A stretch of 55,869 nucleotides of DNA from Gemmatimonadota bacterium. GTDB taxonomy: Bacteria > Gemmatimonadota > Gemmatimonadetes > JACCXV01 > JAHWKZ01. Every line of letters starts with the position of its first letter. Positions within the stretch are counted from its first letter, which is position 1. Positions 5,360-20,455 of the stretch are shown here, piece by piece. The notes beneath the pieces are model-generated. The model searched no databases. It was not told where the DNA came from and saw nothing but the letters and a program-made list of their open reading frames with translations. The translations under genes and the position numbers were made by a program. Location of the stretch: positions 1-55,869 of the forward strand of contig DASSPT010000070.1 in NCBI GenBank assembly GCA_035699465.1, in the 5' to 3' direction.

Positions 5360-6993
5360 GCGGCCCGAGAATCTATCTGGCCGGGCTGTCGGGCGCGGGG
5401 AAGTCGACCGTCGCCGCGCTGGCGGGGCGCTGGCTCGGCATCCCGGCCGTGGATGTGGACGCCGAAGTCGAGCGCGTGGCGGGACGGAGCGTGGCCGCGC
5501 TATGGGCCGAGGGCGGCGAAGCGGCCTTTCGCGCGGGCGAGCGGCGCGCCGTCGAGGAGACCGTCGCGCGGCCGGGTCCGGCCGTCGTCGCGCTGGGCGG
5601 CGGCACGCTGGAGGACCCCGAAACCCGCGAGCGGCTCGCCCGCTGGGGCGAAGGCGTCTGGCTGGACGCGCCGGCGGAAGCGCTCGCCGAGCGGATCGGG
5701 GATGGGGCGGCCGAGCGGCCGCTCCTGGCCGGCCGCGACCCCGCGCGGATGCTCCGCGAGCTGGCGGCCGCGCGCGGACCGCGGTACGCGGCGCTTCCGC
5801 ACCGCGTCCGCGCCCACGGTCGCCCGGCCGACGCGGTGGCGGCGGCCGCGCTTCGCGCGGTCTCGCGCACCGATCCGGCCGATCTCGGCGACGGCGTTCG
5901 GCTGGGCCGGGGCGCGCTCGCCCGCGCGGCCGAGCTCCTCGCCGAGGCGTGTCCCACGGTCCTGGGGAGCGTGCTCCCCGTCGTGACCGACTCGCGGATC
6001 TGGACCCTGCACGGCACCGAGCTCGCCGACGCGCTCGTCACGCGGGGTTGGACCGCGAGCCCGATCGCGCTTCGCGAGGGCGAGGCCGCCAAGGCGCCCG
6101 ACGGGCTCGTGGCGATCTGGCAGGGGATCGCGGCGCTCGGCGCCGAGCCGGGCACCCCCCTCCTCGTCCTCGGCGGCGGCGCGCCGGGGGACGTCGGCGG
6201 ACTGGCCGCGGCGACCTTCAAGCGGGGGATGGCGCTCGCCCTCTTCCCGACGACCCTGCTCGCGCAAGTGGACGCCGCGATCGGGGGCAAGAACGCCATC
6301 GACCTCGGCGGAATCAAGAACGTCGTCGGCACGTTCCACGACCCCGTTCTGATCGCGATCGATCCGCTCTGCCCGCTGACGCAGACCGAGCGCGACTGGC
6401 GCTCGGGGTGGGCCGAGATCGTGAAATCCGGCCTGATCGGAGACCCCGACCTGTTCGCGCTCTGCGAGCGGGAGCCGGAGGCGATCGCGGAGCGGCGGCT
6501 GGAGGTGGTCGAGGAGGCGATCCTGCGAGCCGCGCGCGTCAAGCTGCGGATCGTTCGCGAGGACCCGCGCGAGGCGGGGCCCCGGCGGGCGCTCAACCTC
6601 GGTCACACGGTCGGACACGCGCTGGAGGCCGCCGCGGACGGCGGGCTGACCCACGGCGAGGCGGTCGCGATCGGCCTGGTGTCCGCGGCGCGACTGTCCG
6701 CCGGCCTGGGTGTGTCCGACCCGGGGCTCGTCGAGCGCATCGCGTCCGCGCTCGCGGCGCTCGGGCTTCCCACGGCTCCGCCTCCGGCGCTCGATCCCGC
6801 CCGCGTCCTGGCGCTCGCGCGGCAGGACAAGAAGCGGCGCGGCGGCGCGCTCCACGCCGTTCTGCCCGTGCGCCCCGGCGAGACGACGATCCGCTCCCTC
6901 GATGAAGCCCGGCTAGAGCGCTGGATCGAGGAGTCGCTCGGCCCGCGTGCCGCGTCGAGACCGCGCGCGGCCGGCGCGAGAGGCACGGCGTGA
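5356..6993 (+). CDS. aroKB: Bifunctional shikimate kinase / 3-dehydroquinate synthase (fusion)
   Basis: Only the C-terminal 545 codons of track ORF 4075..6993 look real. GTG at 5356 overlaps the aroC TGA. The N-terminal P-loop is IYLAGLSGAGKST (shikimate kinase). The C-terminal region has LGGGAPGDVGG, VDAAIGGKNAI and NLGHTVGHALE (DHQ synthase metal/NAD motifs). Confidence 0.88.
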   Translation: MSGPRIYLAGLSGAGKSTVAALAGRWLGIPAVDVDAEVERVAGRSVAALWAEGGEAAFRAGERRAVEETVARPGPAVVALGGGTLEDPETRERLARWGEGVWLDAPAEALAERIGDGAAERPLLAGRDPARMLRELAAARGPRYAALPHRVRAHGRPADAVAAAALRAVSRTDPADLGDGVRLGRGALARAAELLAEACPTVLGSVLPVVTDSRIWTLHGTELADALVTRGWTASPIALREGEAAKAPDGLVAIWQGIAALGAEPGTPLLVLGGGAPGDVGGLAAATFKRGMALALFPTTLLAQVDAAIGGKNAIDLGGIKNVVGTFHDPVLIAIDPLCPLTQTERDWRSGWAEIVKSGLIGDPDLFALCEREPEAIAERRLEVVEEAILRAARVKLRIVREDPREAGPRRALNLGHTVGHALEAAADGGLTHGEAVAIGLVSAARLSAGLGVSDPGLVERIASALAALGLPTAPPPALDPARVLALARQDKKRRGGALHAVLPVRPGETTIRSLDEARLERWIEESLGPRAASRPRAAGARGTA

Positions 6994-7433
6994 AGGTCCT
7001 CGTTCTCAACGGCCCCAACCTCGGCATCCTCGGAACCCGGGAGCCGGCGATCTACGGATCGGAGACCCTCGCCGAGATCGAGGCGGCGCTCGCGCCGGCG
7101 GCCGCCGACCTGGGGATCGAGACCGAGTGGATCCAATCCAACCACGAGGGCGACCTGATCGAGGCGCTCCAGAGCGGCGCGGCGAGCGCCGCCGGCGCGC
7201 TCCTGAACGCGGGTGCGCTCACCCACTACGGGTTCGCGCTCGCCGACGCGGTGCGCGCGTTCCCGCATCCCGTCGTCGAGGTGCACCTCTCCAACGTGCA
7301 CGCTCGCGAGCCGTGGCGGCGTCGGTCGGTGCTCGCGGCGGCCTGCGCGGGCGGGGTGTTCGGGTTCGGCGCGGACAGCTATCGCCTGGCTCTCCTGGCG
7401 CTCGCGCGCCTCGTCGAGGCCGATCGCCGATGA
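6990..7433 (+). CDS. aroQ: 3-dehydroquinate dehydratase, type II
   Basis: 147 aa. Motifs VLVLNGPNLGILGTREPAIYG and HLSNVHAREPWR. GTGA overlap with aroKB. Confidence 0.93.
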   Translation: MKVLVLNGPNLGILGTREPAIYGSETLAEIEAALAPAAADLGIETEWIQSNHEGDLIEALQSGAASAAGALLNAGALTHYGFALADAVRAFPHPVVEVHLSNVHAREPWRRRSVLAAACAGGVFGFGADSYRLALLALARLVEADRR

Positions 7434-8818
7434 GCGCCCGCGGCGCGGTCCAGGGTCCGTCCGGAACCGCGCTCCCGCGAATCGTAGTCCCGCCGCCCGG
7501 CCCCAGGAGCCGCGAGCTGGCGGCGCAGAATGGCGCGCGCGAGACCGCGCCCGCGGTCGGCGTACTGAACGGCTCGGCGCCCATCGGCTGGGCCGCCGCG
7601 CGGGGCGCCAACGTCGTCGACGTCGACGGGAACGTATACGTGGATCTGACGGGTGGGTTCGGCGCCGCTCTGGTCGGGCACCGCAACCCGCGCGTCGTGC
7701 GCGCGATCGAGCGGCAGTCGCGCCGGCTCGTGCACGCGCTCGGCGACGCGGCGCCGCACCCGGAGCGGGCGGCGCTGGCGGCGGAGCTGTCGGCCAGAGG
7801 GCCGATCCGCGGTGGACGCGTGTACTTCGCGGGCTCGGGCGCCGAAGCCGTCGACCTCGCGCTCAAGACCGCGCACCTCACCACCGGAAGGCCGGGCGTC
7901 GTCGCCTTCGAGGGGGGCTACCACGGGACCTCGCTGGGCGCGCTGCGCGCGACCTCGCGCGCGGCGTTCCGCCTCCCGTTCGAGGACGCGCTCGCGCCCG
8001 CGACCCTGCGGGTGCCGTTCCCGGACGCGTATCGCCCGGCCTTCCGAGTCTCCGGGCGGAGCGTGGGCCGCGTGTTCCTCGATGCGGCGCTCGCGCGGAT
8101 CGACGCCTGGATCGGCGATCTCTCGAAGCCCCGGCTCGGCGCCGTCCTCGTCGAGCCCGTTCAGGGACGCGAGGGCGTGGTCGTCCCCCCGCGGGGCTGG
8201 CTCGCCGCTCTCGGCCGCGCGGCGCGGGAGCGCCGGCTCCTCGTCGTCGCCGACGAGATCCTTACCGGGGGCGGACGCACCGGGCGGATGTGGGCGAGCG
8301 GCCCGCTCGAGCCCGACCTCGTCCTCGTCGGGAAGGGGGTTGCCGGCGGGATGCCGCTGGCGGCGCTCGTCGGCCGGCGCGAGGTGATGGCGGCGTGGGA
8401 GGGCGAGGGCGAGGCGCGCCACACGACGACCTTTCTCGCGCACCCCCTGGCCGTGGCCGCCGCCCGCGCCGCGCTGGCCGAGATCCGCGCGCGGGACCTT
8501 CCGCGTCGCGCGCGGGCGATCGGGCGGCTCCTCGGGGCCGGGCTCGGGCGCATCCGGCGCGTGCACCCTCCGGTCGGAGACGTGCGGGGCGCCGGTGGGC
8601 TGTGGGGAGTCGACTTCGTCGTCGATCCGGAGTCCCGCGAGCCCGACCCTGTGCTCGCCAAGGCCGTCGCCCGGGACCTCGCCGCGCGGGGGTACCTGGC
8701 CCTCGCCGGCGGCGAGGCCGGAAACGTGATCGCGCTCACGCCTCCGCTCACGATCACCGACCGGCAGATCGCGGGGTTCCTCGCCGCGCTCGAGGCCGCG
8801 CTGTCCGACCACGCATGA
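7430..8818 (+). CDS. Class-III (omega) pyridoxal-phosphate aminotransferase
   Basis: This is the internal ATG of track ORF 6947..8818 (ATGA overlap with aroQ). Motifs GGFGAALVGHRNP, GSGAEAVDLALK, FEGGYHGTSLGAL, and DEILTGGGRTGRMWA preceding the PLP-lysine region. Substrate not assignable. Confidence 0.85.
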   Translation: MSARGAVQGPSGTALPRIVVPPPGPRSRELAAQNGARETAPAVGVLNGSAPIGWAAARGANVVDVDGNVYVDLTGGFGAALVGHRNPRVVRAIERQSRRLVHALGDAAPHPERAALAAELSARGPIRGGRVYFAGSGAEAVDLALKTAHLTTGRPGVVAFEGGYHGTSLGALRATSRAAFRLPFEDALAPATLRVPFPDAYRPAFRVSGRSVGRVFLDAALARIDAWIGDLSKPRLGAVLVEPVQGREGVVVPPRGWLAALGRAARERRLLVVADEILTGGGRTGRMWASGPLEPDLVLVGKGVAGGMPLAALVGRREVMAAWEGEGEARHTTTFLAHPLAVAAARAALAEIRARDLPRRARAIGRLLGAGLGRIRRVHPPVGDVRGAGGLWGVDFVVDPESREPDPVLAKAVARDLAARGYLALAGGEAGNVIALTPPLTITDRQIAGFLAALEAALSDHA

Positions 8819-10852: not shown

Positions 10853-12202
10853 CTAGTCCGCGGTGTCGGCGGTGGGTGCCGGCTGCTCCAGCCCGATGCG
10901 GAGCCGACTGACGCGCATGCCGTCGAGCGCCTCGACGACCAGCCGGCATCCCTGTGCCTCGATTACGTCTCCGACCTCGGGCCGCCGGCCGAGGGCGCCG
11001 AATACGTAACCGCCGATCGTGTGGTACTCCTCCTCGTCCAGCTCCAGCCTGAACTCCTCGTTCACGTCCTGGATGAGCAGCAGCCCGTCGATCAGCGCTT
11101 CGCGGTCGGAGATCCGCTCGATGTCGGGCCAGCCTGGATCCTTCTCGCTCCGCACGTCTCCCACGATCCGCTCCAGCACGTCGCGCAGAGTGACGATCCC
11201 GGCCGTGCCGCCGAATTCGTCGATCAGCACGACCACGTGACGCTTCTGGGCCTGCATGGCCGCGAGCAACTGGAACACGCGGACCGACTCCGGCAGTACG
11301 ACCGGATTCTGCATGGCGTGGCGTAGGTCGAAGGCCTGCCGCCCGTCGAGCATGGACAGGAGCTCCTTCACGTTCACGATCCCGACGATCGAGTCGAGCG
11401 AGCCGTCGTAGACCGGGTATCGCGTGAACCCGTGCTGGCGAAGCGTCGCCTCGATATCATCGCGCGGCGCCGACAGCCGAAGGCCGACGATCTCGGTGCG
11501 CGGGATCATCACCTGATTGGCCGTCAGGTCCGCGAGCTCGAAGATGTTGTGGATCATTTCCTCTTCTTCTGGCGCCAGGACCCCGGCGGCGGTGCTGGCG
11601 CTGACGATCATCTTCAGCTCTTCCTCGGTGTGTGGCACGTGGTGGCTGGCGGTCGTTCCGGCGAACCCGAAGGCCCGGACGACCATCAACGAGGCCGTGT
11701 TGAGCACCCAGATGAACGGCTTGAACAGCGTCAGGAACCATTTCGTAGGCAGCGCGACGAACAGCGCGGCCCGCTCTGAACGCTGAATCGCCATAGTCTT
11801 CGGAGCCTGCTCACCCAGGACGATATGAAGCGCGGTGATGATCGTGAATGCGATGATGATCGAGATCGTGTGCGCGCTGATCGTTGCCAGGGAGTCGCCG
11901 GGAAGCCATCCCAGGAGCGGTTCGATGAGGGCAGCCAGAGCGGGCTCCCCGATCCAACCGAGGCCGAGTGAGGCCATCGTGATGCCGAGCTGTGCCGCCG
12001 CGATATAGGCGTCGATGTCTTCGAGTGCGCGCTTGACGGCCTTGGCCAGCGTGTGGCCTTGCTGGACGAGCTCGTCGATCCGGGTTCGGCGGACCGTCAC
12101 GAGCGCGAACTCGCTGGCCACGAAGAAGCCGTTCGCGGCCACGAGAAGGAGGACGGCCAGGAGCCGGAACAGAATGTCTAGGCCGGAATGGTCGGACTCC
12201 AT
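10853..12202 (-). CDS. CNNM/CorC-HlyC family transporter (DUF21 - CBS pair - CorC_HlyC)
   Basis: This is the internal ATG (MESDHSGLDILFRLLAV...) of track ORF 10853..12406. It has a DUF21 membrane domain, CBS pair (PRTEIVGL..., VVLIDEFGGTAGIVTLRDVLE) and a C-terminal CorC domain. Confidence 0.88.
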   Translation of the reverse strand: MESDHSGLDILFRLLAVLLLVAANGFFVASEFALVTVRRTRIDELVQQGHTLAKAVKRALEDIDAYIAAAQLGITMASLGLGWIGEPALAALIEPLLGWLPGDSLATISAHTISIIIAFTIITALHIVLGEQAPKTMAIQRSERAALFVALPTKWFLTLFKPFIWVLNTASLMVVRAFGFAGTTASHHVPHTEEELKMIVSASTAAGVLAPEEEEMIHNIFELADLTANQVMIPRTEIVGLRLSAPRDDIEATLRQHGFTRYPVYDGSLDSIVGIVNVKELLSMLDGRQAFDLRHAMQNPVVLPESVRVFQLLAAMQAQKRHVVVLIDEFGGTAGIVTLRDVLERIVGDVRSEKDPGWPDIERISDREALIDGLLLIQDVNEEFRLELDEEEYHTIGGYVFGALGRRPEVGDVIEAQGCRLVVEALDGMRVSRLRIGLEQPAPTADTAD

Positions 12203-12228
12203 CGATGCCAAACCTAGCGGCCGCTCGG

Positions 12229-12257
12229 TTGACGCGCCCGCGCGGGACGCGTAGCGT
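12229..12257 (+). promoter_or_regulatory. Putative sigma70-type promoter of the MerR-like/SelW-like operon, with a palindrome in the spacer
   Basis: TTGACG (12229-12234), 17-nt spacer, TAGCGT (12252-12257). The spacer contains the perfect 10-bp palindrome CCCGCGCGGG. The -10 element ends 8 nt before the GTG at 12266, implying a near-leaderless transcript. Confidence 0.4.
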
Positions 12258-12265
12258 CGAACCGA

Positions 12266-12517
12266 GTGCGCACAGACGAGCTGATCCGCCGCGTCACAGG
12301 CCTGAGCGTCGAGGTTCTGGACGCGATCGAGAGCGCGGGCTACGTGAGCCCGGACCGGCTCTCGGGGGGCAGCGATCCCCGGTGGTGGAGCGAGAACGAT
12401 CTCCACAAGGTGCGCGACATCCTGCGTTTTCGACGGCGCGGTGCGGATCTCGAGGAGGCATACCGCCGGGCGCGGGAGGACCGGTTCTTCGGGCTCTGCC
12501 CGTGCGACTGGAGATGA
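12266..12517 (+). CDS. Small MerR-like helix-turn-helix regulator
   Basis: 83 aa. The ELIRRVTGLSVEVLDAIESAGYVSP...WWSENDLHKVRDILRFRRRGADLEEA pattern matches the MerR HTH plus wing. High GC3. C-terminal CPC motif. Its TGA overlaps the ATG of the next gene. Confidence 0.6.
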   Translation: MRTDELIRRVTGLSVEVLDAIESAGYVSPDRLSGGSDPRWWSENDLHKVRDILRFRRRGADLEEAYRRAREDRFFGLCPCDWR

Positions 12518-12747
12518 AGCGTATGAAAGTCACGATCGAATACTGCACGGTTTGAAACTACGAACCGAAGGCGGCCGGTCTGGCCGCCGAGCTGGAAGCG
12601 AAGCTGGACGGCGTCGAGATCGAGATGATCCCGAGCGGCGGCGGCGTATTCGAGGTCGTCGTGGATGGCCAGCTGATCCATTCGAAGAAGAGGAGCGGCA
12701 GATTCCCGGAACAAGGGGAGATCGTGGCCGCGCTGCGCGCGCGCTGA
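12514..12747 (+). CDS. SelW/SelT/SelH (Rdx) family selenoprotein with in-frame UGA (Sec) at 12553-12555
   Basis: The track truncates this frame at TGA 12553. Read-through gives M(KRM)KVTIEYCTV-U-NYEPKAAGLAAELEAKLDGVEIEMIPSGGGVFEVVVDGQLIHSKKRSGRFPEQGEIVAALRAR, ending at TGA 12745-12747. It shows the Rdx-fold signatures CxxU, GGxFEV and SKxxxGRFPE. The start is ATG 12514, or ATG 12523 (GGAG lies 9 nt upstream of the latter). Confidence 0.75.
12570..12588 (+). promoter_or_regulatory. Candidate bacterial SECIS hairpin
   Basis: Perfect 7-bp stem GGCGGCC / GGCCGCC with apical loop GGUCU (contains GU). It starts 15 nt after the in-frame UGA. Confidence 0.55.
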
Positions 12748-12766
12748 GCCCCGCGCGGGCGCGGGG

Positions 12767-13984
12767 GTGAACGGTGCCGATTACCTGATCCTGGGCGCGG
12801 GCCCGGCGGGATGCCGCGCCGCCCAGACGATCCGCCGTCGCGATCGGCAGGGGCGCGTGATCCTCCTCACCGATGAGCGGGTTCCCTTCACCAACCGGAT
12901 CCTGCTATCCAAGGAGTTCCTGACGTCCGACGATCTCCCGCCCGAGAGGGCGGTGGTCCTTCCGCCCGGCTCCTTCCACGCGCAGTCCATCGAGCTGAGA
13001 ACCCAGGAGCGGATCGAGCGGCTCGATCCCGAAGCGCGATCGGTCGAGCTGGCGAGTGGGGAGAAGATCGCGTACGGAAAGTGCCTGATCGCGACCGGGT
13101 CGCGTCCGCTCGAGCTCCCGGTGCCGGGATTCGACCTGCCGGGGGTCCACACGCTGCGCACGATCGAGGACGCGGTCGCGCTGCGCGAACACGCCCGCGG
13201 GGCGGATCGCGCGGTCGTGATCGGCGGCGGCCTGATCGGCGCCGAGATCGCGTGCGCCCTGTCCCTCCGCGGCCTTCCCGTGACGCTCGTCGCGCGGGAA
13301 CGGTGGCTGTGGGGGCACATCGCGCCGGAGTCCGTGGGGCGCGCCGTGGGCGAGGCGCTCCGGGCCCGTGGCGTGGAGCTACGGCTGGGGGGGATCGTCG
13401 TCGCGATCCAGGCCGCGGGGAGTCAGCTGGTGGTCGAGTGTGGCGACGGAGAGCTCCTTCGGGCGCCGCTCGTCGCGGCGGGCGTGGGCGTTCGCTACAA
13501 CGTCGAGTTCCTCGCCGACACGAACCTGCTGGAGCCCGGCCGTGGGGTGCGGGTGGATCGGTGGCTCGAGACCGAAGCGCCGGGACTGTGGGCCGCCGGC
13601 GACGTCGGGGCCTTCGACGACCCCGTGTTCGGTTGTCGGCACCACGTCGAGCACTGGCTCCATGCCCAGCACCAGGGGCGCACGGCTGGGGAGAACATGA
13701 CCGGAGAGCGGAAGGTCTACCGGCGTGCGTCCAGGTACGACACGCGGCTGTTCGATCTCGCCGTCACGGTCGTGGGAGCGCCGGAGCTGGCCGAGCGATG
13801 GACGGAAGAGGAACCGATCGCCGCCGGCACGGGAACGGCGCTCGGCTGGAGCCGGGAGCGGCTGGTCGCCGCCTATCGCCTGGGAGCGGGGGGCGCGATC
13901 GAGGCCATCGCCCGGCGGATCGGGGGCGAGGCCGAAGCCGTCGTGTCGGAGCTCACTCCGCCTCGATCCCCAGGAAGTCCCTGA
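12767..13984 (+). CDS. FAD/NAD(P)H-dependent pyridine nucleotide-disulfide oxidoreductase family reductase (ferredoxin-reductase-like)
   Basis: 405 aa. DYLILGAGPAGCRAA (FAD GxGxxG), AVVIGGGLIGAEIA (NAD site) and WAAGDV. No CxxxxC redox disulfide. Confidence 0.82.
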   Translation: MNGADYLILGAGPAGCRAAQTIRRRDRQGRVILLTDERVPFTNRILLSKEFLTSDDLPPERAVVLPPGSFHAQSIELRTQERIERLDPEARSVELASGEKIAYGKCLIATGSRPLELPVPGFDLPGVHTLRTIEDAVALREHARGADRAVVIGGGLIGAEIACALSLRGLPVTLVARERWLWGHIAPESVGRAVGEALRARGVELRLGGIVVAIQAAGSQLVVECGDGELLRAPLVAAGVGVRYNVEFLADTNLLEPGRGVRVDRWLETEAPGLWAAGDVGAFDDPVFGCRHHVEHWLHAQHQGRTAGENMTGERKVYRRASRYDTRLFDLAVTVVGAPELAERWTEEEPIAAGTGTALGWSRERLVAAYRLGAGGAIEAIARRIGGEAEAVVSELTPPRSPGSP

Positions 13985-14189
13985 TCGACTTCTCCAGGAT
14001 CTCCTGCGCGCGGGTGTCGGAGAGGTCGAGCCGATACTCGTTGATCACCATGACCTGCATCCGTTTGCACTCCTCCCAGCAGTTCGCGCAGACCTTCTCG
14101 GCGATCTCGCGTCCCATCGCGTCCGGATACGGAGGCCGATCCAGGCCAGCGCGGGTCTGCCCGCAGCGGATGCACGTCACGTCGGTCAT
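13953..14189 (-). CDS. yggX: Fe(2+)-trafficking / oxidative-damage protection protein YggX family
   Basis: 78 aa. GLDRPPYPDAMGREI...W...MQVMVINEYRLDL matches the YggX consensus (RPPYPG..G..I...W..W...Q..LINE..L). Its 3' end overlaps the convergent reductase gene by 32 nt. Confidence 0.75.
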   Translation of the reverse strand: MTDVTCIRCGQTRAGLDRPPYPDAMGREIAEKVCANCWEECKRMQVMVINEYRLDLSDTRAQEILEKSIRDFLGIEAE

Positions 14190-14677
14190 CAGGATCCCTT
14201 CTCGTAAGTCAGTGTCTCGCCGTGCAGGGTGACGATCTCGAGAACCATGTAGGAACGTTTCCCGCCCGGCGCCTGAAGGTTCACCTTCTGTCCCGGCCGC
14301 GCGCCGAGCAGAGCGCGCCCGAGGGGTGAGGCTATGGAGATCATCTCGTCGTCGAGCTCGACGAACTCGGGGAACACGATCCGCAGCGTCATCTTCCCAC
14401 CGTCATCGTCGGCCAGAGCGACCCGGGAGCCGAACCCCACCACGTCGCGCGGGACATCCCGCAGGTTGATGCCGGATAGCTCGCTCTGACGGCGGGTCAG
14501 CTGGGACAAGCGGGCGCGAACGAACTCCTGGCGCTCCAGTGCGGTCGTGTACTCTGCGTTCTCGCGCAAATCGCCCATCGCCACCGCGGTCGCGATCCGC
14601 TTGGGGAGCTCGACCCGCAGCTCGCGATCGAACTCCTCTATCTGGGATTGAAGCCGGGATCGCAACTCTTCGAGCAT
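14189..14677 (-). CDS. greA: Transcription elongation factor GreA
   Basis: This is the internal ATG (MLEELRSRLQ...) of track ORF 14189..14989. GDLRENAEY motif and a C-terminal FKBP-like domain. The stop overlaps the yggX ATG by 1 nt. Confidence 0.9.
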   Translation of the reverse strand: MLEELRSRLQSQIEEFDRELRVELPKRIATAVAMGDLRENAEYTTALERQEFVRARLSQLTRRQSELSGINLRDVPRDVVGFGSRVALADDDGGKMTLRIVFPEFVELDDEMISIASPLGRALLGARPGQKVNLQAPGGKRSYMVLEIVTLHGETLTYEKGS

Positions 14678-16468: not shown

Positions 16469-17455
16469 ATGTTCACGATCGGAACCCTCACACTCGACCG
16501 GCCCCTTCTTCTGGCGCCGATGGAGGACGTCTCGGACCAGTCGTTCCGGCTCATGTGCCGGAGGCTGGGAGCCGACGTCGTCTACACCGAGTTCATCTCT
16601 TCCGAGGGGCTGATCCGTGACGTCAGGGTCTGTCTGGAGAAGCTGCGTCTCGCGGAGGGGGAGCGGCCGGTCGGGATCCAGATCTACGGCTCCCAGGTCG
16701 ACGTGATGGTCGAGGCCGCGCGGATCGCCGCGCAGGCCGGGCCGGATCTGATCGACATCAACATCGGGTGCCCGACCAAAAGCGTCGCCTCGTGCAGCGG
16801 GGCGGGAGCCGGCCTTCTGCGGGACCCGGACAAGATGGCGGCCATCGTGGCGGGCATCGTCGAGGCCGTGGAGCTGCCGGTGACGGTGAAGACCAGGCTC
16901 GGCTGGGACCAGGACTCGATCCGGATCGTCGAGAACGCGCGGCTCTTCGAGCGTCTCGGCGCGAGGGCGCTGACGGTGCACGGGCGAACCAGGGCGCAGC
17001 AGCGGAAGGGCGAAGCGGACTGGCGCTGGATCCGCCGCGCGAAGGAGGCCGTGTCGATCCCGGTCTTCGGCAACGGAGACGTCAAGGACCCCGTGACCGC
17101 GATCCGGATGTTCGAGGAGTATGCCGTCGACGGCGTGATGATCGGCAGGGGCGCGATGGCCAACCCCTGGATCTTCCGGCAGGCCAAGGCGTACCGCGAC
17201 ACCGGCCGGGTCCCGGAGGTCGAGCCCGAGGAGAAGCTGGCGGCGTGCATCCAGCACCTGCACCTCTCGATCGAGCTCAAGGGTCTGCCGCGCGGGGTGA
17301 TCGAGTTCCGCAAGCACTACAAGGGCTACCTCAGGGAGTTGCCGCTGGCGAGCGCCGTGCGGGCGGATCTGATGCAGATGACCGAGCCCGCGCAAGTGTT
17401 CGATCGGCTCGACGCCTTCGCGTCGGAGATCGGCGTGCTGGCCGCGAGCTGCTGA
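16469..17455 (+). CDS. dus: tRNA-dihydrouridine synthase
   Basis: LAPMEDVSDQSFRLMCR, DINIGCP and HGRTRAQ motifs. ATG 16469 is chosen; the track ORF begins at TTG 16430, overlapping the glpD stop. Confidence 0.88.
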   Translation: MFTIGTLTLDRPLLLAPMEDVSDQSFRLMCRRLGADVVYTEFISSEGLIRDVRVCLEKLRLAEGERPVGIQIYGSQVDVMVEAARIAAQAGPDLIDINIGCPTKSVASCSGAGAGLLRDPDKMAAIVAGIVEAVELPVTVKTRLGWDQDSIRIVENARLFERLGARALTVHGRTRAQQRKGEADWRWIRRAKEAVSIPVFGNGDVKDPVTAIRMFEEYAVDGVMIGRGAMANPWIFRQAKAYRDTGRVPEVEPEEKLAACIQHLHLSIELKGLPRGVIEFRKHYKGYLRELPLASAVRADLMQMTEPAQVFDRLDAFASEIGVLAASC

Positions 17456-17480
17456 CCATCCACGAAAGGATCGCAATCCG

Positions 17481-18260
17481 ATGGCCCAAGGCAAACGTCC
17501 CACCGCCCCGCCTCCTTCGCCCTGGAGTCGCTGGGTGATCATCCTGGGTGTCCTCGTCGCCGTGGCGCTCGTCGCCTGGCTAGTCGCTCGCTCGTCCGGC
17601 GAGAACGGCGCGGAGGTGGACACGGCGGCGGACGCCGACGGTCCCCAGCCACTGGCCGCCGAAGGCCCGACTGTGGAAGCGGCAGCCACGCTGGAGAACG
17701 TCCCGCCGGACAGCCTCGCCTCCGCCGGGCCCGACGAGCCGAGCGGGGTCAACATCTCCAACGATCCACGGAGAGGAAGCGCGGACGCCGTGGTGACGAT
17801 CGTCGAGTTCAGCGATTTCCAGTGCCCGCACTGCAAGACGTTCCACGAGCAGATCTTCCCGGCGTTGACGAGCCTGTACGGCGACCAGGTGCGGTGGGTC
17901 TTCGTCAACCGCTTCTTTCCGGCTGGACACCCGCAGGCGGAGGAGGCGGCAATCGGCGGGGAGTGCGCCCTGCGGCAGGGGAAGTTCTGGGAGTACGCCG
18001 ACTACGTGTTCGCCAATCAGGAGCGGTTGCCGGACGGGATCGTCGCGGACGCGGCCTCCGAGATCGGTCTGGACGAAGCGAGCTACTCGCAGTGTCTCGC
18101 GAACCGGGAAACCGCCAGCGAGGTGGCCGCCGATCAGGCCGAAGGGGCCCGCGTCGGGGTCGGTGGAACCCCGTACTTCCTGGTGAACGGGAACGAGGTC
18201 CTGGGCGCGCAGCCTGTAGGAGTCTTCAACGAGGTGCTGGCGCCGTACTTCGAGCGCTAG
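17481..18260 (+). CDS. Membrane-anchored DsbA-family thiol:disulfide oxidoreductase
   Basis: 259 aa. N-terminal TM helix (WVIILGVLVAVALVAWLV), a thioredoxin-fold active site FSDFQCPHCK, and GVGGTPYFLVNG. Confidence 0.82.
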   Translation: MAQGKRPTAPPPSPWSRWVIILGVLVAVALVAWLVARSSGENGAEVDTAADADGPQPLAAEGPTVEAAATLENVPPDSLASAGPDEPSGVNISNDPRRGSADAVVTIVEFSDFQCPHCKTFHEQIFPALTSLYGDQVRWVFVNRFFPAGHPQAEEAAIGGECALRQGKFWEYADYVFANQERLPDGIVADAASEIGLDEASYSQCLANRETASEVAADQAEGARVGVGGTPYFLVNGNEVLGAQPVGVFNEVLAPYFER

Positions 18261-20277: not shown

Positions 20278-20353
20278 GCCTGGGTAGCTCAGATGGTAGA
20301 GCAGGGGACTGAAAATCCCCGTGTCGGCGGTTCGATTCCGTCCCCAGGCACCA
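20278..20353 (+). tRNA. tRNA-Phe (anticodon GAA)
   Basis: Manual cloverleaf. Acceptor GCCTGGG/CCCAGGC, D arm GCTC..GAGC, anticodon stem GGGGA/TCCCC with loop CTGAAAA, T arm GGCGG-TTCGATT-CCGTC, and an encoded CCA. Confidence 0.92.
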
Positions 20354-20379
20354 CGCCTTGGCTCCGCAGGCCTCTGAGA

Positions 20380-20455
20380 GCCACCGTAGCTCAGCTGGTA
20401 GAGCAGCTCACTCGTAATGAGCAGGTCAGCGGTTCGAATCCGCTCGGTGGCTCCA
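20380..20455 (+). tRNA. tRNA-Thr (anticodon CGT)
   Basis: Manual cloverleaf. Acceptor GCCACCG/CGGTGGC, anticodon stem GCTCA/TGAGC with loop CTCGTAA, T arm AGCGG-TTCGAAT-CCGCT, and an encoded CCA. Confidence 0.92.

What the first reader, a model, noticed from the sequence alone, without database searches (positions are those of the whole stretch)
12514..12747. Selenoprotein gene split by the ORF track: SelW/Rdx-like protein with UGA at the CxxU position and a SECIS-like hairpin
The track ORF ends ...MKVTIEYCTV at TGA 12553-12555. The same frame stays open for 64 more codons to TGA 12745-12747. Those codons encode NYEPKAAGLAAELEAKLDGVEIEMIPSGGGVFEVVVDGQLIHSKKRSGRFPEQGEIVAALRAR.

The joined 74-77 aa product has the Rdx (SelW/SelT/SelH) layout. 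This is a beta strand, then C-x-x-U, then a helix, then GGxFEV and SKxxxGRFPE. The UGA falls exactly where family members carry Sec or Cys.

Fifteen nt after the UGA is a perfect 7-bp hairpin, GGCGGCC-GGUCU-GGCCGCC (12570-12588), with GU in the apical loop. That placement is compatible with a bacterial SECIS. TGA is an ordinary stop for many neighbouring genes, so this would be local recoding.
Basis: partly seen in the sequence, partly recalled or inferred. Interest (0 to 1): 0.75.

Follow-up and report, generated by a model that had tools for sequence, protein, structure and literature searches.

The report
SelW-like selenoprotein gene with SECIS hairpin
This is a real 74-codon gene for a small SelW-like redox protein in a soil Gemmatimonadota bacterium whose eleventh codon, UGA, very likely encodes selenocysteine, but it belongs to a selenoprotein family that has been known since 2005.

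Summary
One reading frame runs from ATG 12523 through TGA 12553-12555 to TGA 12745-12747. With Cys in place of the TGA, the 74-aa product passes Pfam Rdx (E 3.8e-23) and the NCBIfam equivalog "SelT/SelW/SelH family (seleno)protein" (103.6 bits, cut-off 88).

All 84 orthologous sequences examined carry TGA at this exact position. They are the window, 3 metagenome contigs and 80 genomes from about ten or more named lineages. Both flanks stay in frame and vary synonymously. True CxxC homologues place Cys at this position.

The 7-bp hairpin at 12570-12588 is conserved at a fixed distance from the UGA. It shows compensatory base changes and a conserved G(U) in the loop. The loop hexamer GGUCUG also occurs in the E. 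coli fdhF SECIS.

TGA ends 25 of 36 Pfam-supported genes in the window, so the recoding is local.

No selA, selB, selD or tRNA-Sec lies in the 56 kb. The rest of the genome could not be reached.

Verdict: this is a genuine SelW-like selenoprotein gene that ORF callers split. It is a new member of a well-known family, so interest is low. The one mildly new point is a clade-specific cassette: a MerR-like gene, the selW-like gene and a ferredoxin-reductase-like flavoprotein gene.

The parts
12523..12747 (+). selW-like (Rdx family) selenoprotein gene: 74 codons plus the TGA stop, with Sec at codon 11
   Evidence: Translation. Pfam PF10262 at E 3.8e-23. NF041051 at 103.6 bits against a cut-off of 88, and TIGR02174 at 74.5 bits. 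The start codon is set by the orthologues.
12544..12555 (+). CxxU redox motif (TGC ACG GTT TGA = Cys-Thr-Val-Sec)
   Evidence: Cys codon: TGC in 67 and TGT in 17 sequences, always Cys. TGA in 84 of 84. CxxC in Cys homologues and in PDB relatives aligns here.
12553..12555 (+). In-frame UGA, inferred to be a selenocysteine codon
   Evidence: TGA in all 84 orthologous sequences. TGA is otherwise the normal stop in the window, ending 25 of 36 genes.
12570..12588 (+). SECIS-like hairpin inside the coding sequence: 7-bp stem with loop GGUCU (12577-12581). G12578 is invariant and U12579 is kept in 73 of 84 sequences.
   Evidence: MFE structure. 89% of cells are paired. Covariation score is 0.358 against 0.119 for shuffles (0 of 500 reach it) and at most 0.128 when slid. 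The loop Gly codon is GGT in 42 of 45 cases, against 9% GGT usage in window genes. The covariance-model hit is at 12553-12592, E 3.4e-13. The GGUCUG loop is shared with the E. coli fdhF SECIS.
12508..12511 (+). GGAG Shine-Dalgarno-like sequence, 11 nt upstream of ATG 12523, lying inside the last codons (D-W-R-stop) of the upstream gene
   Evidence: Read directly from the sequence. The same GGAG is present in L001, L002 and L003. Its function is inferred.
12266..12517 (+). Upstream 83-aa gene: a stand-alone MerR-like winged-helix protein with an invariant C-terminal RFFGLCPCDWR. It ends 5 nt before the selW-like start.
   Evidence: Alignment of 20 orthologues. The profile gives only weak hits, all to MerR-family DNA-binding domains (2JML at 0.006, MtaN, TipAN, GlnR). 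CarH N-terminus at E 4.8e-4. It lies directly upstream of the selW-like gene in 29 of the 33 related loci tabulated. L011 lacks it and L034, L064 and L074 show no synteny.
12767..13984 (+). Downstream 405-aa FAD/NAD(P)H flavoprotein of the ferredoxin/rubredoxin-reductase/AIF type, starting 19 nt after the selW-like stop
   Evidence: Pfam Pyr_redox_2 at 2e-56. NCBIfam HcaD and AndAa below their cut-offs. PDB 3LXD, 3FG2 and AIF. It follows the selW-like gene in most of the clade but is missing in L011, L014, L030 and L048.
12229..12257 (+). Promoter-like TTGACG-N17-TAGCGT, 8 nt upstream of the GTG start of the 83-aa gene. It is the probable promoter of the three-gene unit, and the transcript may be leaderless.
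   Evidence: GTTGACG and TAGC(G/C)T blocks are conserved across 17 loci while the spacer varies. The consensus scan did not call it. Its function is inferred.

Best explanation
Window 12523-12747 (+) is one gene for a 74-residue SelW-like (Rdx family) thioredoxin-fold protein with the active-site motif Cys8-Thr-Val-Sec11.

The UGA at 12553-12555 is not a stop here. The hairpin at 12570-12588, 14 nt downstream and inside the coding sequence, acts as a bacterial SECIS element. It would recruit SelB-GTP-Sec-tRNA(Sec) to the ribosome so that selenocysteine is inserted and translation continues to the real stop, TGA 12745-12747.

The mature protein would cycle between a selenol/thiol form and a selenenylsulfide form, as a small redox protein.

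The gene is the second of a probable three-gene unit: a MerR-like 83-aa protein, the selW-like gene and a ferredoxin-reductase-like flavoprotein.

Shown here: the frame, the family, the fold, conservation of the TGA, Cys/UGA alignment, hairpin conservation and covariation, and local rather than genome-wide reading of TGA.

Inferred: actual Sec insertion, SelB binding, the redox function and co-transcription.
For: Family and fold:
- Pfam Rdx at E 3.8e-23 over 73 of 74 profile positions.
- NCBIfam equivalog NF041051 'SelT/SelW/SelH family (seleno)protein' at 103.6 bits against a cut-off of 88, and TIGR02174 at 74.5 against 34.2.
- PDB sequence matches to MIEN1 (2LJK, 6e-12), Atu0228 (2FA8, 6.5e-12) and mouse SelW (2NPB, 2.8e-6). 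The second Cys of their CxxC aligns on the UGA.
- A model of the 60%-identical orthologue P0002 has pLDDT 92.9, with topology beta1, loop, alpha1, beta2-4, alpha2. It matches 2FA8 at TM 0.91.

Conservation of the UGA:
- TGA is at the same codon in 84 of 84 sequences from Gemmatimonadota, Fibrobacterota, Marinimicrobia, Krumholzibacteriota, Planctomycetota, Acidobacteriota, Desulfobacterota and others, always in frame.
- Codons on both sides vary synonymously. Cys is TGC in 67 and TGT in 17. The Tyr after the UGA is TAC in 65 and TAT in 19.
- Among the 150 best library representatives, the aligned residue is W in 80. For P0001, which equals the L083 gene, the DNA codon is TGA, so there the W is a gene caller reading TGA as Trp. 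For the other W entries this is inferred.
- The same position is C in 30 of those representatives, which are true CxxC homologues.

Hairpin:
- 89% of cells are paired. Pair 33-45 is GC 34, CG 29, UA 12, UG 6. Pair 34-44 is GC 47, UA 14.
- The covariation score is 0.358. Shuffles average 0.119, with 0 of 500 as high, and slid registers give at most 0.128. The result holds for the 38 non-Gemmatimonadota sequences alone.
- G38 of the loop is invariant.
- The loop codon is the rare GGT or AGT in 73 of 84 sequences. GGT is only 9% of Gly codons in window genes.
- The loop hexamer GGUCUG is identical to that of the E. coli fdhF SECIS, verified in 5419 genomes.
- A covariance model trained without any Gemmatimonadota sequence hits only 12553-12592 in the window, at 53.9 bits and E 3.4e-13.

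Other points:
- TGA terminates 25 of 36 Pfam-supported genes in the window.
- Literature: SelW-like is an established bacterial selenoprotein family with CxxU and few Cys forms (PMC1088965, PMC1794560).
Against: - No selA, selB, selD or tRNA-Sec is present in the 56-kb window or in any of the 83 related loci.
- I found no paper in the library that documents the Sec trait in Gemmatimonadota.
- In the single sequence the hairpin is not statistically unusual (z -1.54).
- RNAalifold with default settings returns no consensus structure for the 84-sequence alignment. It finds the hairpin only with RIBOSUM scoring.
- 21 sequences have an A.C or U.C mismatch at pair 34-44.
- The stem lacks the bulged U of the E. 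coli fdhF SECIS, and the loop GU lies 3 nt further from the UGA (+26/+27 against +23/+24).
- No selenium incorporation has been measured.
Confidence: 0.93

Rival explanations
1. UGA at this site is read through as another amino acid, such as Cys, Trp or Gly. This would occur by near-cognate or suppressor decoding without the Sec machinery. The hairpin would serve only as a read-through stimulator or would be a by-product of the AAGLAA peptide.
For: - Sec machinery was not found in the window or the related loci.
- Public gene callers emit W or G at this position.
- The hairpin encodes a conserved peptide, so part of its conservation is protein-level.
Against: - The W in P0001 corresponds to a TGA codon in the DNA of L083, so it is a calling artefact.
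- TGA is the main stop codon in the window, ending 25 of 36 genes.
- The position is the catalytic one, where family members carry Sec or Cys (PMC1088965).
- Rare GGT and AGT codons are kept in the loop, and compensatory changes also alter the peptide, for example AAGLAA against ASSLEA. This points to RNA-level selection with a SECIS-type loop.
Confidence: 0.03
2. The UGA is a true stop, and the locus yields separate products as public gene calls have it. These would be a 10-residue peptide and an internally initiated 40-47-aa C-terminal fragment.
For: Gene callers annotate only the 47-51-aa C-terminal fragments in related contigs. An ATG exists at 12625.
Against: - The fragment would lack beta1, the CxxU loop and alpha1 of a single compact domain.
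- The internal start is not conserved. Callers use different ATG, TTG and GTG codons in different contigs.
- The 10 codons upstream and the 23 codons between the UGA and ATG 12625 are under protein-level selection in the same frame in 84 sequences.
- The joined sequence gains 25 bits against Pfam Rdx.
Confidence: 0.02
3. The gene is a pseudogene: a Cys-form Rdx gene inactivated by a TGC/TGT to TGA nonsense mutation.
For: TGA is one mutation away from TGC or TGT, and CxxC homologues exist.
Against: The same TGA is present in all 84 orthologues across many phyla. The downstream frame is intact, there are no frameshifts, and substitution is synonymous-biased. Synteny is also conserved.
Confidence: 0.01

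Closest known systems
Bacterial SelW-like selenoproteins (Rdx family; Pfam PF10262, TIGR02174, NCBIfam NF041051), as described in the Sargasso Sea and bacterial selenoproteome surveys (PMC1088965, PMC1794560)
   Same: - Size of about 75 aa.
- CxxU motif directly after beta1.
- GGGxFEV and SKKxxGRFP motifs.
- In-frame UGA followed by an in-ORF stem-loop with G in a small apical loop.
- Few Cys forms.
- Scores above the curated cut-offs.
   Different: Nothing in the gene itself differs. The host is a soil Gemmatimonadota bacterium, a phylum I could not find mentioned for Sec use in the papers searched. The conserved neighbours are a MerR-like gene and a flavoprotein gene.
E. coli fdhF SECIS element (SelB-binding hairpin)
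   Same: - Lies in the ORF directly 3' of the UGA.
- Has a GC-rich upper stem.
- Has the apical sequence GGUCUG, read as the in-frame codons GGU CUG.
   Different: - The loop G-U is at +26/+27 from the U of UGA, against +23/+24 in fdhF.
- The spacer before the stem is 14 nt, against about 11 nt in fdhF.
- There is no bulged U. The stem is a perfect 7 bp here, and in 21 relatives it has an internal A.C or U.C mismatch instead.
- SelB binding was not tested.
Solved Cys-form bacterial SelW-related proteins (Atu0228 2FA8, 2OBK, 2OKA, 2P0G, 2OJL, SAV_2001 3DEX) and eukaryotic SelW (2NPB) and MIEN1 (2LJK)
   Same: They share the fold, with TM 0.86-0.94 and rmsd 0.8-1.3 A for the bacterial structures. 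They also share the position of the redox motif.
   Different: The solved bacterial proteins are about 100-108 aa CxxC forms with an extended C-terminus. This one is a minimal 74-aa domain with Sec. Eukaryotic SelW uses a 3'-UTR SECIS.

Membership tests
Rdx / SelW-like (SelT/SelW/SelH) protein family | Scores above the curated cut-offs of the family profiles | tested here: met
   PF10262 at 81.9 bits (cut-off 22.6). NF041051 equivalog at 103.6 bits (cut-off 88) and TIGR02174 at 74.5 bits (cut-off 34.2). The UGA was replaced by Cys for scoring.
Rdx / SelW-like (SelT/SelW/SelH) protein family | CxxC/CxxU redox motif right after the first beta strand, with Sec or Cys at the second position | tested here: met
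   The motif is C8-T-V-UGA11. The aligned residue is Cys in PDB relatives and in 30 of 150 library representatives. It is TGA in 84 of 84 orthologues.
Rdx / SelW-like (SelT/SelW/SelH) protein family | Thioredoxin-like fold (beta1-alpha1-beta2-beta3-beta4-alpha2) | tested here: met
   Tested on the 60%-identical orthologue P0002, because the joined window protein was not accepted by the tool. The model has pLDDT 92.9 and elements E2-8, H14-27, E32-38, E43-47, E50-54, H64-73. Foldseek gives 2FA8 at TM 0.91 and rmsd 1.1 A, with thioredoxins at TM about 0.6.
Rdx / SelW-like (SelT/SelW/SelH) protein family | Selenium actually present in the protein | not testable with these tools
   Needs 75Se labelling or mass spectrometry.
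Bacterial SelB-dependent Sec recoding (UGA plus in-ORF SECIS) | [quoted passage not shown] | tested here: met
   A 7-bp stem lies at 12570-12588, 14 nt after the UGA. 75 of 84 orthologues form at least 5 of the 7 pairs in their own MFE fold.
Bacterial SelB-dependent Sec recoding (UGA plus in-ORF SECIS) | Small apical loop containing a conserved G (PMC1088965), which is GU in E. coli fdhF | tested here: met
   The loop is GGUCU. G12578 is invariant in 84 sequences and U12579 is kept in 73 of 84 through the rare codons GGT and AGT. The GGUCUG sequence is shared with fdhF.
Bacterial SelB-dependent Sec recoding (UGA plus in-ORF SECIS) | Structure maintained by compensatory changes | tested here: met
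   Covariation score is 0.358 against 0.119 for shuffles (0 of 500 as high). Five of the 7 pairs show double changes, and the result holds in the non-Gemmatimonadota subset. Caveat: default RNAalifold gave no consensus. RIBOSUM scoring gave the hairpin at -21.1 kcal/mol.
Bacterial SelB-dependent Sec recoding (UGA plus in-ORF SECIS) | selA, selB, selD and tRNA-Sec (selC) present in the same genome | not testable with these tools
   They are absent from the 56-kb window, by ARAGORN, Rfam and Pfam scans of about 40 ORFs. They are also absent from the 83 related loci. The rest of the genome is not available. The window's reductase is not on record in the assembly index.
Bacterial SelB-dependent Sec recoding (UGA plus in-ORF SECIS) | UGA otherwise used as a stop (local, not genome-wide, recoding) | tested here: met
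   25 of 36 Pfam-supported ORFs in the window end in TGA, including this gene and both of its neighbours.
MerR-family transcription regulators (for the upstream 83-aa protein) | N-terminal winged helix-turn-helix matching MerR profiles above threshold | tested here: inconclusive
   There is no Pfam hit at 1e-4. The CarH N-terminus hits at E 4.8e-4, far below its cut-off. A profile of 20 orthologues gives only weak hits (E 0.006-1), nearly all of them to MerR-type DNA-binding domains.

The most novel reading that the evidence does not exclude
In one clade of soil Gemmatimonadota, the selW-like selenoprotein gene sits in a conserved cassette that may be leaderless. The cassette consists of three genes:
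- an 83-aa MerR-like protein with an invariant C-terminal CPC motif;
- the SelW-like selenoprotein;
- an AIF/ferredoxin-reductase-type flavoprotein.

The most novel reading not excluded is that this is a self-contained, redox-regulated electron-transfer module. NAD(P)H would reduce the flavoprotein, which would reduce the SelW selenenylsulfide. That would name a physiological reductant and a regulator for bacterial SelW-like proteins, whose function is still unknown.
Probability: 0.15. Interest if true: 0.45.

Novelty: new member of a known kind. Interest (0 to 1): 0.2.

Why it matters
Practically, this is another case where standard ORF calling splits or truncates a selenoprotein gene. Public protein sets hold this family mostly in two wrong forms: 47-63-aa fragments, or versions with W or G at the position aligned with the TGA. 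The one W entry that could be checked, P0001, has a TGA codon there.

It also implies that a widespread group of soil (farmland) Gemmatimonadota decodes UGA as selenocysteine. I did not find this documented in the papers searched.

Biologically the gene adds nothing new to the family. The conserved neighbours, a MerR-like CPC protein and a ferredoxin-reductase-like flavoprotein, offer a testable lead to the unknown function of bacterial SelW-like proteins.

Tried and rejected
- Sec machinery in the window. ARAGORN and Rfam found only tRNA-Phe and tRNA-Thr. Pfam scans of about 40 ORFs found no SelA, SelB or SelD.
- Sec machinery next to orthologues. ARAGORN on all 83 loci found no tRNA-Sec.
- Finding the source assembly to walk outward. 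The 405-aa reductase is not on record. The 78-aa Iron_traffic protein is found only on farmland-soil contigs of 2.2 kb or less.
- Other selenoprotein genes in the window. A GC3-based scan for TGA-split coding frames returned only adjacent genes that share a frame. The scan is crude and missed this gene too, because its N-terminal part is short.
- A universal gene neighbour across phyla. Clustering of flanking ORFs showed only clade-specific contexts and heavy noise from spurious high-GC ORFs.
- Literature on Sec use in Gemmatimonadota. Nothing relevant was found.
- RNAalifold with default parameters gave no consensus structure.
A profile of W-containing orthologues was used instead, which biases the ranking towards W entries.
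- Simple promoter and terminator consensus scans of 12000-14400 found nothing.
Full report
**1. What is in the sequence**

The frame of 12514-12747 (+) reads MKRMKVTIEYCTV*NYEPKAAGLAAELEAKLDGVEIEMIPSGGGVFEVVVDGQLIHSKKRSGRFPEQGEIVAALRAR*. The internal stop is TGA 12553-12555 and the final stop is TGA 12745-12747.

It lists a 116-aa ORF at 12205-12555, whose first 100 codons are an alternate-frame reading of the neighbouring gene. It also lists a 40-aa ORF at 12625-12747.

The hairpin GGCGGCC-GGUCU-GGCCGCC lies at 12570-12588. It is the minimum-free-energy structure of the 60 nt after the UGA. By itself it is not exceptional (z -1.54; 12 of 200 shuffles fold as well). Long open frames are also commonplace in this 69% G+C DNA. 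The coordinates and features are therefore exactly as reported, but significance has to come from comparison.

**2. Family**

With Cys in place of the UGA, the protein hits Pfam Rdx (PF10262) at E 3.8e-23 over positions 1-73 of 74. The part after the UGA alone gives 3.6e-15.

It also passes the NCBIfam equivalog NF041051 'SelT/SelW/SelH family (seleno)protein' (103.6 bits, cut-off 88) and TIGR02174.

By sequence it matches solved Rdx structures:
- MIEN1 (2LJK), 6e-12
- Atu0228 (2FA8), 6.5e-12
- SAV_2001 (3DEX)
- 2OBK
- mouse SelW (2NPB), 2.8e-6

In each, the second Cys of CxxC lies on the UGA.

I therefore modelled the 60%-identical orthologue P0002. The model has pLDDT 92.9 and elements beta 2-8, helix 14-27, three strands, and helix 64-73. 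It superposes on bacterial SelW-related crystal structures (2FA8, TM 0.91, rmsd 1.1 A) and more distantly on thioredoxins.

**3. Is the UGA conserved?**

A word-based protein search returned two kinds of hit:
- 47-63-aa fragments that begin after the UGA;
- 'full-length' proteins with W at the position (CTQW, CSHW, CMQW).

Contigs that encode the fragments (L001-L003) show the same gene order, the same in-frame TGA and the identical hairpin.

A scan of one genome per species found 414 relatives. The best 80 loci were kept. Most are Gemmatimonadota MAGs. Others are Fibrobacteraceae, Marinimicrobia, Krumholzibacteriota, Planctomycetota, Acidobacteriota, Desulfobulbaceae, Vulcanimicrobiota and more.

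In every one of the 84 sequences the codon is TGA. The N-terminal (M)KVTIEYCxx segment and the NYEPxA...GGGVFEV...SKK...FP segment are in one frame.

The query carried Cys at that position, so Cys forms were not disfavoured in the ranking.

Codons on either side vary synonymously while the residue is fixed:
- Cys: TGC 67, TGT 17
- Tyr: TAC 65, TAT 19

This shows protein-level selection on both sides of the UGA. It rules out a pseudogene.

P0001 is the product of the L083 gene, where the DNA has TGA. In that checked case the W comes from a gene caller using an alternative code, and I infer the same for the other W entries.

An exhaustive profile search of 1.84 billion representatives gave 1911 family members. 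Among the best 150, the aligned residue is:
- W in 80
- C in 30 (true CxxC homologues)
- G in 11
- S in 4
- A in 4
- 20 are N-terminally truncated

The profile had W at that column, which favours W entries. Cys homologues therefore exist, and their Cys aligns with the UGA. This is the classical signature of a Sec codon.

**4. The hairpin**

The 84 sequences were aligned without gaps.

Pairing and covariation:
- The 7 pairs are formed in 89% of cells.
- Pair 33-45 is GC 34, CG 29, UA 12, UG 6.
- Pair 34-44 is GC 47, UA 14.
- The covariation score is 0.358. Shuffles average 0.119 (0 of 500 as high), and registers slid by 1-3 nt give at most 0.128.

The result holds in the 38 non-Gemmatimonadota sequences alone.

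Loop and codon usage:
- The second loop base (G12578) is invariant.
- The next base is U in 73 of 84 sequences, through the codons GGT (42 of 45 Gly) and AGT (31 of 31 Ser).
- GGT makes up only 9% of Gly codons in window genes. That is selection on the RNA, not on the peptide.

Some compensatory changes alter the peptide, for example AAGLAA against ASSLEA.

Caveats:
- 21 sequences have an A.C or U.C mismatch at pair 34-44.
- RNAalifold with default settings reports no consensus. With RIBOSUM scoring it returns an 8-bp stem with a 3-nt loop at the same place (-21.1 kcal/mol).
- 75 of 84 single-sequence folds contain at least 5 of the 7 pairs.

A covariance model built only from the 38 sequences of other phyla finds a single hit in the window, at 12553-12592 (53.9 bits, E 3.4e-13). 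The next hit scores 7.7 bits.

I checked the E. coli fdhF SECIS against 5426 E. coli genomes. My recalled 46-mer is 100% identical within fdhF. Its apical sequence GGUCUG is the same hexamer as here, in the same codon phase (GGU CUG). Here it lies one codon further from the UGA (G/U at +26/+27 rather than +23/+24), and there is no bulged U.

[quoted passage not shown] The hairpin meets it.

**5. Local or global recoding, and the machinery**

TGA ends 25 of 36 Pfam-supported ORFs in the window, including this gene and both neighbours. The UGA reading is therefore local.

The window holds no tRNA-Sec and no SelA, SelB or SelD among about 40 ORFs scanned. It is an ordinary chromosomal region. Genes identified include:
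- aro (aromatic biosynthesis) genes
- a CNNM transporter
- greA
- a GlpD-like gene
- dus
- glmS
- dtd
- rpsB
- pyrH
- cdsA
- dxr
- rseP
- glycosyltransferases

None of the 83 related loci carries tRNA-Sec or a sel gene within 10 kb. I could not reach the rest of the genome.

The conservation of UGA plus hairpin in more than 40 independent Gemmatimonadota MAGs is itself hard to explain unless the UGA is productively decoded.

**6. Surroundings**

The gene order is:
- a CNNM/CBS/CorC transporter (-)
- an 83-aa gene (+, 12266-12517)
- the selW-like gene (+)
- a 405-aa Pyr_redox_2 flavoprotein (+, 12767-13984)
- an Iron_traffic gene (-)
- greA (-)
- a GlpD-like gene (+)

This order recurs in about 30 Gemmatimonadota loci. 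The flavoprotein is missing in four of them. Other clades have unrelated neighbours.

The 83-aa protein has an invariant C-terminus RFFGLCPCDWR. It gives only weak hits, consistently to MerR-type DNA-binding domains. Its last codons contain the GGAG that precedes the selW-like start.

A conserved TTGACG-N17-TAGC(G/C)T lies 8 nt before its GTG start.

The flavoprotein belongs to the ferredoxin/rubredoxin-reductase/AIF group.

The gaps between the three genes are 5 nt and 19 nt, and no terminator-like site was found. Co-transcription is inferred, not shown.

**7. Comparison with what is known, and verdict**

SelW-like proteins with CxxU and an in-ORF SECIS are an established bacterial selenoprotein family. 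They were the most abundant family in the Sargasso Sea data, with few Cys forms (PMC1088965, PMC1794560). NCBI has an equivalog model that this protein passes.

The finding is therefore correct and well supported (confidence 0.93). It is a new member of a known kind.

Two points are mildly new. First, the host is a soil Gemmatimonadota bacterium, and identical neighbouring proteins occur on farmland-soil contigs. Second, the gene sits in a clade-specific MerR-like / SelW-like / reductase cassette. This is a lead to function, not a result.

Interest is 0.2.

Noticed in passing
window 12266-12517 (+): An 83-aa protein lies directly upstream. It has an absolutely invariant C-terminal motif EDRFFGLCPCDWR in 20 orthologues and only weak similarity to MerR-type winged-helix domains. 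Its last codons (GAC TGG AGA TGA) carry the GGAG ribosome-binding site of the selW-like gene. That stretch is therefore under dual constraint.
   Followed up: partly
window 12229-12257 (+): TTGACG-N17-TAGCGT is conserved in 17 related loci while the spacer varies. It lies only 8 nt upstream of the GTG start at 12266, which suggests a leaderless or near-leaderless transcript. The simple promoter scan did not call it.
   Followed up: partly
window 12767-13984 (+) and 13953-14189 (-): A ferredoxin/rubredoxin-reductase/AIF-type flavoprotein gene starts 19 nt after the selW-like stop. Its 3' end overlaps the convergent Iron_traffic (YggX-like) gene by 32 nt. The flavoprotein is absent from the same position in L011, L014, L030 and L048.
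   Followed up: partly
public protein sets (P0001-P0164): This family is mostly stored in wrong forms: as 47-63-aa fragments starting after the UGA, or with W (80 of the top 150) or G (11 of 150) at the Sec position. The likely cause is gene callers applying genetic codes 4 or 25. Only P0001 (equal to the L083 gene) was checked against DNA. The G, S and A entries were not checked.
   Followed up: partly
alignment A2 columns 34 and 44 (window 12574 and 12584): In 21 of 83 distinct sequences, mostly one Gemmatimonadota subgroup (GCGACC...GGCCGCC and GCGTCC...GGCCGCC), the middle of the stem has an A.C or U.C mismatch. The window's stem is perfect. Whether this mimics the bulge of the E. coli SECIS is unknown.
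   Followed up: no
window 20278-20455 (+): A tRNA-Phe(GAA) and tRNA-Thr(CGT) pair lies about 7.7 kb downstream. The same pair is found at a similar distance in many syntenic Gemmatimonadota loci, including L005, L008, L013, L018, L033, L035, L036, L040 and L049.
   Followed up: no
window 5500-8730: The 470-aa ORF at 5503-6912 (-) has a coding-like GC3 of 0.83 but no Pfam family at 1e-5. The stretch 6906-8730 was not scanned and had no ORF passing my composition filter between 7433 and 8730. Content is unknown.
   Followed up: no
window 17382-18257 (+): A DsbA/Thioredoxin_4-like protein is encoded about 4.6 kb downstream. It is another thiol-redox gene in the neighbourhood. It has no in-frame TGA, and no link to the selW-like gene was examined.
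   Followed up: no
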